Under the pieces are notes generated by a model. That model worked only from the letters and a program-made list of their open reading frames with translations, made no database searches and was not told where the DNA came from. Positions 39,453-43,001 of a stretch of DNA of 64,000 nucleotides are shown piece by piece. The stretch is from the human T2T-CHM13v2.0 reference genome, Homo sapiens. Location: contig CP068257.2 in assembly GCA_009914755.4 (NCBI GenBank), positions 8,480,001 through 8,544,000 of the forward strand, in the 5' to 3' direction. The position numbers and the translations under genes are program-made. Numbering within the stretch: the first letter of the stretch is position 1; each line of letters starts with the position of its first letter.

Positions 39453-40235
39453 TTTATTATTATTATTATGCTTTAAGTTTTAGGGTACATGTGCACAAAC
39501 TGCAGGTTACTTACATATGTATACATGTGCCATGCTGGTGAGCTACACCCACTAACTCGTCATCTAGCATTAGGTATATCTCCTAATGCTATCACTCTCG
39601 CCTCCTCACAACCTGCAACAGTCCCCAGAGTGTGATGTTCCCCTTCCTGTGTCCATGTGTTCTCATTGTTCAATTCCCACTTATGAGTGAGAATATGCTT
39701 TGTTTGTTTTTTTTGTTTTTGCGATAGTTTACTGAGAATGATGATTTCCAGTTTCATCCATGTCCCTACAAAGGACATGAACTCATCATTTTTTATGGCT
39801 GCATAGTATTCCATGGTGTATATGTGCCACATTTTCTTAATCCAGTCTATCATTGTTGGACATTTGGGTTGGTTCCAAGTCTTTGCTATTGTGAATAGTG
39901 CCACAATAAACATACGTGAGCATGTGTCTTTATAGCAGCATGATTTACAGTTCTTTGGGTATATACCCAGTAATGGGATGGCTGGGTCAAATGGGATTTC
40001 TAGTTCTAGATCCCTGAGGAATCGCCACACTGACTTTCACAATGGTTGAACTAGTTTACAGTCCCACCAACAGTGTAAAAGTGTTCCTATTTCTCCACAT
40101 CCTCTCCAGCACCTGTTGTTTCCTGACTTTTTAATGATTGTCATTCTAACTGGTGTGAGATAATATCTCACTGTGGATTTGATTTGCATTTCTCTGATGG
40201 CCAGTGATGGTGAGCATTTTTTCATGTGTTTTTAG
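39453..40235 (-). mobile_element. L1 (L1PA-type) 3' segment: ORF2 C-terminus plus 3'UTR plus A-rich tail, antisense on + strand
   Basis: RC reads ...[63 protein letters not shown]...[23 protein letters not shown]...[58 protein letters not shown], then the 3'UTR ggggaacatcacactctgggg...gcacatgtaccctaaaacttaaagcataataataataataaaac. The tail is at the low-coordinate end. Confidence 0.92.
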
Positions 40236-43001
40236 GATATCCAGGAATTGAACTTAGCTCTGCACCAAGCGGACCGAATAGACATCTATAGAACTCTCCA
40301 CCCCAAATCAACAGAATATACATTTTTTTCAGGACCACACCACACCTATTCCAAAATTGACCACATAGTTGGAAGTAAGGCTCTCCACAGCAAATGTAAA
40401 AGAACAGAAATTATAATAAACTGTCTCTCAGACCACAGTGCAATCAAACTAGAACTCAGGATTAAGAAACTCACTCAAAACCACTCAAATACATGGAAAC
40501 TGAACAACCTGCTCCTGAATGACTACCGGATACATAACAAAATGAAGGCAGAAATAAAGATGTTCTTTGAAACAACGAGAACAAAGAAACAATATACCAG
40601 AATCTCTGGGACACATTCAAAGCAGTGTGTGAGGGAAATTTATAGTACTAAATGCCCACAAGAGAAAACAGGAAAGATCCAAAATTGACACCCTAACATC
40701 ACAATTAAAAGAACTAGAAAAGCAAGAGCAAACACATTCAAAAGCTATTAGAAGGCAAGAAATAACTAAAATCAGAGCAGAACTGAAGGAAATAGAGACA
40801 CAAAAAACCCTTCAAAAAATTAATGAATCCAGGAGCTGGTTTTTTGAAAGGATCAACAAAATTGATAGACCGCTAGCAAGACTTATAACGAAAAAAAGAG
40901 AGAAAAATCAAATAGACGCAAGAAAAAATGATAAAGGGTATATCACCACCGATCCAACAGAAATACAAACTACCATCAGAGATTAATACAAACACCTCTA
41001 TGCAAATAAACTAGAAAATCTAGAAGAAATGGATAAATTCCTTGACACATACACTCTCCCTAGACTAAACCAGGAAGAAGTTGAATCTCTGAATAGACCA
41101 ATAACAGGAGCTGAAATTGTGACAATAATCAATAGCTTACCAACCAAAAAGAGTCCAGGATCAGATGGATTCACAGCCGAATTCTACCAGAGGTACAAGG
41201 AGGAACTGGTACCATTCCTTCTGAAACTATTCCAATCAATAGAGAAAGAAGGAATCCACCCTAACTCATTTTATGAGGCCAGCATCATCCTGATACCAAA
41301 GCCGGGCAGAGACACAACAAAAAAAGAGAATTTTAGACCAATATCCTTGATGAATATTGATGCAAAAATCCTCAATAAAATACTGGCAAACCGAATCCAG
41401 CAGCACATCAAAAAGCTGATCCACCATGATCAAGTGGGCTTCATCCCTGGGATGCAAGGCTGGTTCAATATAAGCAAATCAATAAACCTAATCCAGCATT
41501 TAAACAGAACCAAAGACAAAAACCACATGATTATCTCAATAGATGCAGAAAAGGCCTTTGACAAAATTCAACAACCCTTCATGCTAAAAATTCTCAATAA
41601 ATTAGGTATTGATGGGACATATCTCAAAATAATAAGAGCTATCTATGACAAACCCACAGCCAATATCACACTGAATGGGCAAACACTGGAAGCATTCCCT
41701 TTGAAAACTGGCACAAGACAGGGATGCCCTCTCTCACCACTCCTATTCAACATAGTGTTGGAAGTTCTGGCCAGGACAATCAGGCAGGAGAAAGAAATAA
41801 AGCGTATTCAATTAGGAAAAGAGGAAGTCAAATTGTCCCTGTTTGCAGACAACATGATTGTATATCTAGAAAACCCCATTGTCTCAGGCCAAAATCTCCT
41901 TAAGCTGATAAACAATTTCAGCAAGTCTCAGGATACAAAATCAATGTACAAAAATCACAAGCATTCTTATACACCAACAACAGAAAAACAGAGAGCCAAA
42001 TCATGAGTGAACTCCCATTCACAATTGCTTCAAAGAGAATAAAATACCTAGGAATCCACCTTACAAGGGACATGAAGGACCTCTTCAAGGAGAACTACAA
42101 ACCACTGCTCAAGGAAATAAAAAAGGATACAAGGAAATGGAAGAACATTCCATGCTTATGGGTAGGAAGAATCAATATCATGAAAATGGCCACACTGCAA
42201 AAGGCAATTTATGGATTCAATGCCATCCCCATCAAGCTACCAATGATTTTCTTCACAGAATTGGAAAAAACTGCTTTAAAGTTCAAATGGAACCAAAAAA
42301 GTGCCTGCATCGCCACGTCAATCCTAAGCCAAAAGAACAAAGGTGGAGGCATCATACAACCTGACTTCAAACTATACTACAAGGCTACAGTAACCAAAAC
42401 AGCACGGTACTGGTACCAAAACAGAGATATAGATCAATGGAATAGAACAGAGCCCTCAGAAGTAATGCCGTATATCTACAACTATCTGATCTATGACAAA
42501 CCTGAGAAAAACAGGCCATGGGGAAAGGATTCCCTATTTAATAAATGGTGCTGGGAAACTGGCTAGCCATATGAAGAAAGCTGAAACTGGATCCCTTCCT
42601 TATACCTTATACAAAAAATCAATTCAAAATGGATTAAAGACTTAAACGTTAGACCTCAAACCATAAAAACCCTAGAAGAAAACCCAGGCATTACCATTCA
42701 GGACATAGGCATGGGCAAGGACTTCATGTCTAAAACAACAAAAGCAATGGCAACAAAAGCCAAAGTTGACAAATGGGATGTAATTAAACTAAAGAGCTTC
42801 TGCACAGCAAAAGAAACTACCATCAGAGTGAACAGGCAACCCACAAAATGGAGAAGATTTTTGCAACCTACTCATCTGACAAAGGGCTAATATCCAGAAT
42901 CTACAATGAACTCAAACAAATTTACAAGAAAAAAACAAAGAACCCTATCAAAAAGTGGGTGAAGGACATGAACAGACACTTCTCAAAAGAAGACATTTAT
43001 G
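40236..43001 (+). mobile_element. L1 ORF2 segment (approx. codons 150-1108) in opposite orientation to the adjacent L1 3' segment. Disrupted by frameshifts and stops (ORF2 pseudogene).
   Basis: Begins gatatccaggaattgaacttagctctgcaccaagcggacc (ORF2 [13 protein letters not shown]...). Contains the RT domain ([47 protein letters not shown]...[12 protein letters not shown]). Ends ...[17 protein letters not shown] at gacatttatg (43001), exactly where the antisense 3' segment picks up (KHMKKCS). Confidence 0.92.

What the first reader, a model, noticed from the sequence alone, without database searches (positions are those of the whole stretch)
39453..43001. 3.55-kb L1PA insertion with twin-priming architecture and a near-seamless inversion junction
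The L1 consists of a sense 3' segment (ORF2 codon ~1110 through the 3'UTR and A-tail; window minus strand, 39453-40235). This is joined at 40235/40236 to an inverted segment covering ORF2 codons ~150-1108 (40236-43001). The outer end of the inverted segment (…gacatttatg) and the start of the sense segment (ccaaaaaacacatg…) are adjacent positions in L1, with at most ~3 nt lost (cag). This is the configuration expected when the second primer anneals next to where first-strand synthesis stopped. The flanking alpha monomer is continuous across the element. The left flank ends at …ctagacagaagcaatcggataaacttgttt. The right flank resumes at gaggaacttctttgtgatg. This implies a ~10-14 bp diverged TSD (gagaaacttctttg-like) and a single insertion event. 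The 3'UTR motifs (ctagatgacgagttagtgggtg..., taagtaacctgcag...ccctaaaacttaaag) indicate an older L1PA subfamily, not L1HS. It lies at the boundary region between the M- and D-type layers.
Basis: partly seen in the sequence, partly recalled or inferred. Interest (0 to 1): 0.55.

Follow-up and report, generated by a model that had tools for sequence, protein, structure and literature searches.

The report
Ordinary twin-primed (5'-inverted) L1 insertion
This is an old, dead L1 retrotransposon copy sitting in monomeric alpha satellite, with its 5' part flipped relative to its 3' part in the textbook "twin priming" pattern seen in about 30% of L1 insertions, so it is real but ordinary.

Summary
Bases 39453-40236 (minus strand) are an L1 3' end: ORF2 from codon 1088, the 3'UTR and a short TAA/A-rich tail. 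Bases 40236-43001 (plus strand) are ORF2 codons 163/164 to 1086/1087.

In 16 L1 reference copies that are intact across this point, the outer end of the inverted piece and the start of the sense piece lie 3 nt apart ('cag'). The loss could be up to 8 nt, depending on how shared bases are assigned.

Both pieces show the same divergence from consensus-like L1 contigs (2.97% and 3.70%, p=0.30). Both rank those references alike (Spearman 0.76). The inverted piece has no 3' end or tail of its own.

The alpha monomer resumes in phase with a 12-14 nt overlap, the size of an L1 target-site duplication. There are short shared bases at both junctions, and no inverted repeats that could have flipped the piece later.

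The verdict is a single twin-priming insertion of a non-Ta L1PA (about L1PA3-5 grade). This is a known mechanism.

- The codon numbers were off by 14-22.
- The quoted 'ccaaaaaacacatg' is actually 'cctaaaaacacatg'.
- The two TSD copies match only 10/14, no better than unrelated monomers, so the TSD rests on phase alone.
- I saw no alpha-layer boundary at the element.

The parts
39441..39454 (+). Left copy of the putative target-site duplication: 'ggataaacttgttt', alpha-monomer positions 17-30. The firm core is 39443-39454, 12 nt. The T run at its 3' end is the presumed primer for first-strand synthesis.
   Evidence: Phase mapping of the flanks on the local alpha consensus. It carries three variants that are rare among 255 monomers (g17, t20, g27).
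39455..39469 (-). Short A-rich tail. On the minus strand it reads (ATA)5 followed by A's. The pure poly(A) is at most about 4 nt and cannot be separated from the target T run.
   Evidence: Sequence. Reference L1 3' ends finish '...cttaaagtataataataat-aaaa'.
39470..39669 (-). L1 3'UTR of the sense segment. It is non-Ta ('gatgacGAGttagtgggtg') and of the 'aactaacctgcacattg' type, with private changes.
   Evidence: Alignment to reference L1 contigs and to the two other L1 copies in the window.
39670..40236 (-). C-terminal part of ORF2 in the sense segment, from the last two bases of codon A1088 (or from K1089/K1090) to the position of the stop codon (39670-39672). It contains one stop and one indel.
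   Evidence: phmmer against PDB 8uw3_A ORF2p; translations; indel count.
40233..40237 (.). Inversion junction, 't-a-g-g-a'. The 'gg' (40235-40236) is present in both L1 partners: reverse complement of 'gCC aaa', and 'aaGG at'. The a at 40234 fits the inverted partner. This gives 1-2 nt of microhomology with a 3-nt loss, or no microhomology with a 6-nt loss.
   Evidence: Three-way display of the window against reference L1 on both sides.
40236..43001 (+). Inverted segment: ORF2 codons D164 (possibly from K163) to Y1086 plus the first base of A1087. It covers the last third of the endonuclease domain, the linker, the RT domain and most of the C-terminal region. It has six frameshifting indels and several stops, and no 3'UTR or tail.
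   Evidence: (also matches the EN structure 1vyb at 164-238 and the RT core 8c8j).
43000..43001 (.). 'tg' at the outer (5') junction. It is shared by L1 ('tatgcag') and the alpha consensus ('tctgaga'), so it is a possible 2-nt microhomology where the second primer annealed.
   Evidence: This is inferred from the alpha consensus; the left TSD copy reads 'gg' at these positions.
43002..43013 (+). Right copy of the putative target-site duplication: 'aggaacttcttt', monomer positions 19-30. It is 14 nt if 43000-43001 are included. It is followed by 'gtgatg', which implies a first-strand nick at 5'-CTTT/GT.

Best explanation
I read this as one retrotransposition event of a single L1PA RNA, resolved by twin priming.

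**Steps inferred from the anatomy**
1. L1 endonuclease nicked the window's plus strand after the T run of an alpha monomer ('...aaacttcttt/gtgatg').
2. That 3' end primed reverse transcription from the RNA's 3' tail. This gave the minus-strand 'sense' piece.
3. The other strand was nicked 12-14 nt away before first-strand synthesis had finished.
4. Its 3' end ('...gttcctca') annealed by about 2 nt inside the same RNA at ORF2 nt ~3258-3259. It primed a second cDNA that ran 2.77 kb toward the RNA's 5' end, stopping at ORF2 nt ~488-490.
5. The first cDNA stopped where the second had started (ORF2 nt ~3263).
6. The two cDNA 3' ends were joined at 40233-40237, possibly through a 'gg' microhomology.

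**Result.** The structure is: TSD, inverted ORF2 163/164-1086/7, sense ORF2 1088 to tail, TSD, with 3 (at most 8) nt of L1 missing at the inversion point.

The copy was never functional. It has since decayed by about 3-3.7% and is a passive marker in non-homogenising monomeric alpha satellite.

**Shown:** the anatomy, L1 coordinates, equal divergence, same lineage, phase overlap. **Inferred:** the order of nicks and primings, the microhomology use, and the TSD.
For: - **ORF2p alignment.** It is continuous from residue 164 to 1262, with only 'AAK' lost in the stitched protein at the breakpoint.
- **Nucleotide references.** The inverted end and the sense start are 3 nt apart in all references.
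- **Internal controls.** Two other L1 3' ends in the same window run straight through the breakpoint.
- **No independent 3' end.** The inverted piece is 3'-truncated and has no tail, so it cannot be an independent target-primed insertion.
- **Divergence.** 2.97% against 3.70%, p=0.30. Indels are 6 per 2766 nt and 1 per 784 nt.
- **Same lineage.** The two segments give the same reference ranking, Spearman 0.76, p=0.0017.
- **Flank phase.** The flanks overlap by 12-14 nt in alpha-monomer phase. This is within a few nt of the 14-16 bp peak reported for full-length L1 insertions, which 5'-inverted L1s resemble, and in HeLa assays all 17 inverted insertions had TSDs of 10-17 bp (PMC2912911).
- **Microhomologies.** 'tg' is possible at the 5' junction and 'gg' at the inversion junction. 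PMC2912911 reports microhomology at the 5' junction in 95% of 5'-inverted L1s, about 70% of them 2-5 bp.
- **No later flip.** No inverted repeat longer than 15 nt lies near the breakpoints.
- **Frequency.** About 31% of human- and chimpanzee-specific L1 insertions are 5'-inverted (PMC2912911). The mechanism is described in PMC2837659 and PMC2912911.
Against: - **TSD identity.** The two TSD copies match at only 10/14 (9/12 for the core). Unrelated monomers match at 11.97/14 on average over the same positions, and only 11% of such pairs match at 10 or fewer. Their identity therefore gives no support.
- **Excess mismatches.** Four post-insertion changes in 14 nt exceed the roughly 0.9-1.4 expected from the L1 body's divergence (my Poisson estimate, p about 0.015-0.05). 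The excess is partly offset by a roughly twofold higher private-substitution density in the adjacent 200 nt of the L1 (14/197).
- **Nick site.** The inferred nick site, CTTT/GT, is only a partial match to TTTT/A.
- **Tail.** The poly(A) tail is almost absent.
- **No empty site.** None was available, as the best paralogous alpha is 84-87% identical.
- **Microhomologies.** At 1-2 nt, they are not individually significant.
Confidence: 0.9

Rival explanations
1. An ordinary 5'-truncated L1 (ORF2 nt ~488 to the tail) inserted on the minus strand. Its 5' 2.77 kb was later inverted in place by two double-strand breaks and end joining.
For: This would give the same final order and orientation, and a small loss at one breakpoint. 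The equal divergence and the same lineage of the two pieces fit it equally well.
Against: One breakpoint would have to coincide, to within about 2 nt, with the L1/flank boundary at 43001/43002 without disturbing the flank's monomer phase. That is a coincidence of order 1 in 1000. There are no inverted repeats to drive it. Twin priming predicts this coincidence and is common (PMC2912911).
Confidence: 0.04
2. Two independent events or two different RNAs. This could be a second L1 inserted next to a first, or 'dual priming' of two L1 RNAs at the two nicks.
For: L1s do hit this array repeatedly: three L1s and an Alu lie within 52 kb of alpha satellite. Dual priming has been proposed in theory (PMC2837659).
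Against: The inverted piece lacks the 3'UTR and tail that any independently primed L1 cDNA must start from. The end points of the two pieces are 3 nt apart on a 6-kb template, which is unexplained if the templates are independent. There is no second TSD pair. Divergence and lineage are the same.
Confidence: 0.02
3. Twin priming happened, but the flanking 12-14 nt 'TSD' is not a true duplication of one sequence. Two versions are possible. In one, the insertion removed (n x 171 minus ~13) bp, so the flanks come from different monomers. In the other, one flank was overwritten afterwards by gene conversion or unequal exchange within the alpha array.
For: The two copies match at 10/14, like or worse than unrelated monomers (mean 11.97/14). 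The left copy has three variants that each occur in 5 or fewer of 255 monomers and are absent from the right copy. My likelihood ratio is about 7 in favour of 'different monomers' over 'one sequence plus ~3% decay per copy'.
Against: The phase overlap would have to fall in the L1-typical TSD range by chance (about 5%). In HeLa assays all 17 5'-inverted insertions had TSDs of 10-17 bp (Gilbert et al., as cited in PMC2912911), so the prior odds are above 100:1 the other way. Private substitutions are also about twice as dense in the adjoining 200 nt of L1, so local excess mutation can account for much of the mismatch.
Confidence: 0.05

Closest known systems
5'-inverted L1 insertions made by twin priming (Ostertag & Kazazian 2001, as described in PMC2912911 and PMC2837659)
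   Same: It has two pieces of one L1 in opposite orientation inside one pair of flanking duplications. The tail-bearing piece is in sense orientation. The outer end of the inverted piece abuts the start of the sense piece in L1 coordinates, with a small deletion (3-8 nt). There are short microhomologies at the 5' junction and the inversion junction. The TSD is of normal length.
   Different: Nothing differs in kind. The details are an unusually long inverted arm (2.77 kb against a 0.78-kb sense arm), a nearly absent poly(A), a weak endonuclease-site match (CTTT/GT), and TSD copies that have diverged more than the element body.
Ordinary 5'-truncated L1PA insertions, such as the two in this window (55393-56279 and ~61537-62625)
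   Same: They share the same GAG-type 3'UTR, the same ~3% private divergence, and the same host array.
   Different: Those two are collinear through the breakpoint 'tatgcagccaaaaaa'. They lie on the other strand and sit at a canonical TTTT/A site of the monomer ('cataaaa/ctagaca').
Twin-priming variants with an inverted poly(A) only, and 'dual priming' (PMC2837659)
   Same: These also involve a second priming event at the top-strand nick.
   Different: Here the sense arm extends 0.78 kb beyond the tail. Both arms come from adjacent positions on one template, so neither variant nor a second RNA is needed.
L1 insertions with target-site deletion or endonuclease-independent insertion (PMC1920257)
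   Same: Diverged or absent TSDs and a weak endonuclease site can be seen in these.
   Different: Here the flanks overlap by a TSD-sized 12-14 nt in monomer phase, and the element has its 3' end and an A-rich tail. Endonuclease-independent insertions typically lack TSDs and are 3'-truncated.

Membership tests
Primate LINE-1 (L1PA lineage) | Homology to L1 ORF2 (EN, RT and C-terminal domains) in the L1 order | tested here: met
   phmmer against PDB 8uw3_A gives E=0, 2264 bits, residues 164-1262. Nucleotide identity to human L1 contigs is 94-96%.
Primate LINE-1 (L1PA lineage) | L1PA-type 3'UTR ending in an A-rich tail | tested here: met
   The 3'UTR aligns to the end of the reference L1s, '...ccctaaaacttaaag(c)ataataat'. 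The tail is short: (ATA)5 plus 2-4 A.
Primate LINE-1 (L1PA lineage) | Not L1HS-Ta or pre-Ta: GAG rather than ACA/ACG at the 3'UTR diagnostic triplet, and appreciable decay | tested here: met
   The copy reads 'gatgacGAGttagtggg', whereas reference L009 reads 'gatgacACAtta'. Private substitutions are 2.97-3.70%, with 7 indels and several stops. That ACA marks Ta is from my own knowledge.
Primate LINE-1 (L1PA lineage) | Exact subfamily (L1PA2 to L1PA8) by curated consensus | not testable with these tools
   No Repbase or Dfam consensi were available. The consensus-like contaminant contigs put it with the younger cluster (L001, L002, L003, L009) in both segments. A divergence of ~3-3.7% suggests about L1PA3-5, using the ~0.17%/Myr calibration I recall from Khan et al. 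2006.
Twin-primed (5'-inverted) L1 insertion | Two segments of the same L1 in opposite orientation, with the tail-bearing 3' segment in sense and the inverted segment lying 5' of it in L1 coordinates | tested here: met
Twin-primed (5'-inverted) L1 insertion | The outer end of the inverted segment and the inner start of the sense segment are adjacent in L1 coordinates, or overlap or lose only a little | tested here: met
   A 3-nt gap ('cag') in all 16 references. The gap is at most 8 nt if shared bases are assigned to the partners.
Twin-primed (5'-inverted) L1 insertion | Both segments come from one template: same subfamily and same age | tested here: met
   Fisher p=0.30 for private substitutions. 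Spearman 0.76, p=0.0017 for reference ranking.
Twin-primed (5'-inverted) L1 insertion | A single pair of target-site duplications flanks the whole structure | tested here: inconclusive
   A 12-14 nt overlap in alpha-monomer phase is present. The two copies match only 10/14, no better than unrelated monomers. No empty site was available.
Twin-primed (5'-inverted) L1 insertion | Microhomology between target and L1 at the 5' junction, and often at the inversion junction | tested here: inconclusive
   'tg' (2 nt) is possible at 43000-43001 and 'gg' at 40235-40236. Both are short, and both depend on an inferred pre-insertion sequence or on one assumed substitution.
Twin-primed (5'-inverted) L1 insertion | L1 endonuclease-type first-strand nick site (5'-TTTT/A) | tested here: inconclusive
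   The inferred site is 5'-CTTT/GT, a pyrimidine run followed by a purine. This is a partial match only.

The most novel reading that the evidence does not exclude
The flanking 'TSD' may not be a simple duplication. Either the twin-primed insertion joined two different alpha monomers, deleting a whole number of monomers minus ~13 bp, or one flank was later overwritten by conversion or unequal exchange. In either case this L1 would mark a rearrangement point in an otherwise static monomeric alpha layer.
Probability: 0.06. Interest if true: 0.15.

Novelty: already known. Interest (0 to 1): 0.08.

Why it matters
It matters little beyond annotation. The element is a clean worked example of twin priming. 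Standard repeat annotation would presumably report it as two oppositely oriented L1PA fragments, and they should be read as one event.

Its modest value is as a dating marker. This L1 and the two other L1PA 3' ends in the window all show about 3% private divergence. They are not duplicated with the surrounding monomers. That implies this monomeric alpha domain has not been homogenised since they inserted, which is the expected behaviour of pericentromeric monomeric layers.

Tried and rejected
- **Direct translation** of 40236-43001 failed with 34 stops in one frame. I stitched the frames by hand using a tblastn guide.
- **Empty-site search.** I looked for a paralogue of the flanks within the window. 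The best alpha matches are only 84-87% identical, so the pre-insertion target cannot be read.
- **Source look-up.** The 325-aa ORF (41029-42006) is not on record in the gene index, so I obtained no source or orthologue.
- **Alpha-layer boundary at the L1.** The block-wise monomer identity matrix and lag profiles show no change across the element and no higher-order repeat. I did not attempt suprachromosomal-family typing.
- **Later inversion by recombination.** Only two chance 14-15 nt imperfect inverted matches exist, neither at the breakpoints.
- **TSD identity as evidence.** I rejected this because unrelated monomers match better over the same positions.
- **Exact L1PA subfamily.** I did not resolve it. 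The reference panel is made of consensus-like, partly mosaic contaminant contigs. For example, L003 pairs a young-type ORF2 with an old-type 3'UTR, and L001 diverges after position 5900.
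Full report
**Setting.** The window is primate pericentromeric satellite.
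- Bases 40-11821 are a (CCATT)n pentamer satellite.
- From 11857 to the end it is 171-bp alpha satellite. Orientation is + (11859-21630), - (21625-34565) and + (34511-63989).
- The alpha is interrupted four times: 24563-24874, 39424-42997, 55395-56280 and 61565-62625.
- The alpha is monomeric. Mean pairwise monomer identity is 0.81-0.84 at every lag, with no higher-order periodicity.

- A self-BLAST of 39453-43001 finds two other L1 3' ends in the window, at 55.4-56.3 kb and 61.5-62.6 kb. Both are collinear on the plus strand and 92-94% identical to the query.
- The inverted segment has six frameshifts and several stops, so I stitched the frames.
- The stitched translation (40236-43001 plus strand, then 40233 downward on the minus strand) aligns as one stretch with human ORF2p. 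The match is to PDB 8uw3_A, residues 164-1262, E=0.
- The inverted piece is D164 to Y1086 plus the first base of A1087. The sense piece begins with the last two bases of A1088. In the stitched protein only 'AAK' is missing.
The architecture is as described.

**Nucleotide-level junctions.**
- No curated L1 library was available. I scanned the bacterial and archaeal genome collection with the 325-aa ORF and recovered 64 human-L1 contaminant contigs.
- Fourteen of them span the region. They have almost no private substitutions (0-0.8% in ORF2), so they behave as consensus-like references.
- In all fourteen the inverted piece ends and the sense piece starts 3 nt apart. Examples: L001 2506-5275 and 5279 onward; L003 2600-5369 and 5373 onward.
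- The fourteen contigs and the 55.4-kb L1 read 'gacatttatg-CAG-ccaaaaaacacatg' across the point. The 61.5-kb L1 has the same stretch with a 1-nt deletion and two substitutions.
- Inner junction: the window reads 'catgtgttttt-a-gg-atatccagg'. The reverse complement of the sense partner would continue 'ttttttGGctgc'. The inverted partner is preceded in L1 by 'caacaAGGatac'.
- There are two readings of the inner junction. In one, the sense arm reaches 40236 with one substitution at 40234, giving 1-2 nt of 'g/gg' microhomology and a 3-nt loss. In the other, it stops at 40233 with no microhomology and a 6-nt loss.
- Outer junction: the window reads 'catttaTGaggaacttc'. L1 continues 'tatgcag' and the alpha consensus reads 'tcTGagaaacttc'. 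The 'tg' can therefore belong to either, a possible 2-nt microhomology for the second primer.
- Overall, 3-8 nt of L1 are missing at the inversion point. 'Near-seamless' is fair.

**One event or two?**
- Private substitutions (a state seen in no reference) number 82/2765 (2.97%) in the inverted arm and 29/783 (3.70%) in the sense arm, Fisher p=0.30. Differences from the panel majority are 3.76% and 4.85%, p=0.18.
- At 86 sites that vary among the references, both arms side with the same contigs (L001, L002, L003, L009) and against the same older-looking cluster (L006, L011, L014, L015, L020). The Spearman correlation of per-reference match fractions is 0.76, p=0.0017.
- The inverted arm has no 3'UTR, tail or flanking duplication of its own. 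It therefore cannot be an independent target-primed insertion.
- There is no inverted repeat near the breakpoints that could have mediated a later flip.
- A later in-place inversion would need one breakpoint to fall within about 2 nt of the L1/flank boundary. Twin priming predicts exactly that.

**Flanks and TSD.**
- On the local alpha consensus, the left flank runs to monomer position 30 (31), '...cagaagcaatcggataaacttgttt(t)'. The right flank resumes at position 19, or 17 if 'tg' is counted, '(tg)aggaacttctttgtgatg'.
- So 12-14 nt of the monomer are present on both sides. This is within a few nt of the 14-16 bp peak reported for full-length L1 TSDs, which 5'-inverted L1s resemble (PMC2912911).
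- The two copies match at only 10/14. Among 255 monomers, unrelated pairs match at 11.97/14 on average over the same positions, and only 11% match at 10 or fewer.
- The left copy carries three rare variants and the right copy one.
- The TSD is therefore supported by phase only. The four mismatches exceed the roughly 1-1.4 expected from the body's divergence (my estimate, p about 0.015-0.05).
- Part of the excess may be local. The adjoining 200 nt of the L1 carry about twice the average density of private substitutions (14/197 against 3.1% overall).
- I keep a 5-6% rival in which the flanks are not copies of one sequence.
- The implied first-strand nick site, 5'-CTTT/GT, is only a partial match to TTTT/A.
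- The tail is (ATA)5 plus a few A's.

**Subfamily and age.**
- The element and both neighbouring L1s read 'gatgacGAGttagtggg', whereas reference L009 has the Ta-type ACA. That ACA marks Ta is from my own knowledge.
- The 3'UTR is of the 'aactaacctgcacattg / ccctaaaac' type, with private changes.
- With ~3-3.7% private divergence, it is an older L1PA of roughly L1PA3-5 grade. That estimate uses the ~0.17%/Myr calibration I recall from Khan et al. 2006.
- The exact subfamily is not resolved, because the panel contigs are unlabeled and partly mosaic.
- All three L1s in the window show similar private divergence (2.9-3.7%).

**Comparison with what is known.** This is the classical twin-priming product.
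- In PMC2912911, 5'-inverted copies make up 30.9% of 2068 human- or chimpanzee-specific L1 insertions. 95% have microhomology at the 5' junction, about 70% of them 2-5 bp.
- Nothing here departs from that in kind.

**Claim not supported.** The remark that the element lies at a boundary between alpha 'layers' is not supported. Monomers left (34.5-39.4 kb) and right (43-55.4 kb) of it are as similar to each other (0.817) as within each side (0.823 and 0.830).

**Verdict.** The element is real, ordinary and of a known kind. The one soft spot is the poorly matching TSD.

Noticed in passing
window 40-11821: A (CCATT)n pentamer satellite of HSat2/3 type. It has about 2325 copies at 68% matches, GC 0.46 and GC skew about -0.78. 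It abuts the alpha satellite at ~11857 with no spacer.
   Followed up: partly
window ~21625-21630 and ~34511-34565: The alpha-satellite orientation flips from + to - and back to +, so 21.6-34.5 kb is an inverted 13-kb block of monomeric alpha. The junctions fall inside monomers.
   Followed up: partly
window 24549-24888: A young-looking AluY-like element on the minus strand (24563-24874). It has a ~36-nt uninterrupted poly-T (its A tail) and a perfect 14-nt TSD, 'aaaaagagcatttc'. A paralogous stretch (21625-22170 matches 24010-24554 at 96% identity) continues at ~22165 without the Alu, giving an approximate empty site.
   Followed up: partly
window 55393-56279 and ~61537-62625: Two further 5'-truncated L1PA 3' ends on the plus strand. 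They are GAG-type with ~3% private substitutions. Both ended their insertion at the same monomer position, 'cataaaa/ctagaca' (TTTT/A on the minus strand), which suggests a preferred endonuclease site within the alpha monomer.
   Followed up: partly
window 39450-39650: Private substitutions in the L1 are about twice as dense in the 200 nt next to the left flank (14/197) as in the element overall (3.1%). The adjoining TSD copy carries three rare variants. This may be a local mutation cluster, or it may be uncaptured 3'UTR subfamily variation.
   Followed up: partly
loci L001-L064 (genome contigs): Sixty-four species-representative 'bacterial' or 'archaeal' assemblies (Mycobacterium, Streptomyces, Actinomadura, various MAGs and others) contain human L1 contigs. 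Many are ~5-7 kb and consensus-like, with ~0% private substitutions. They look like collapsed assemblies of human contamination.
   Followed up: no
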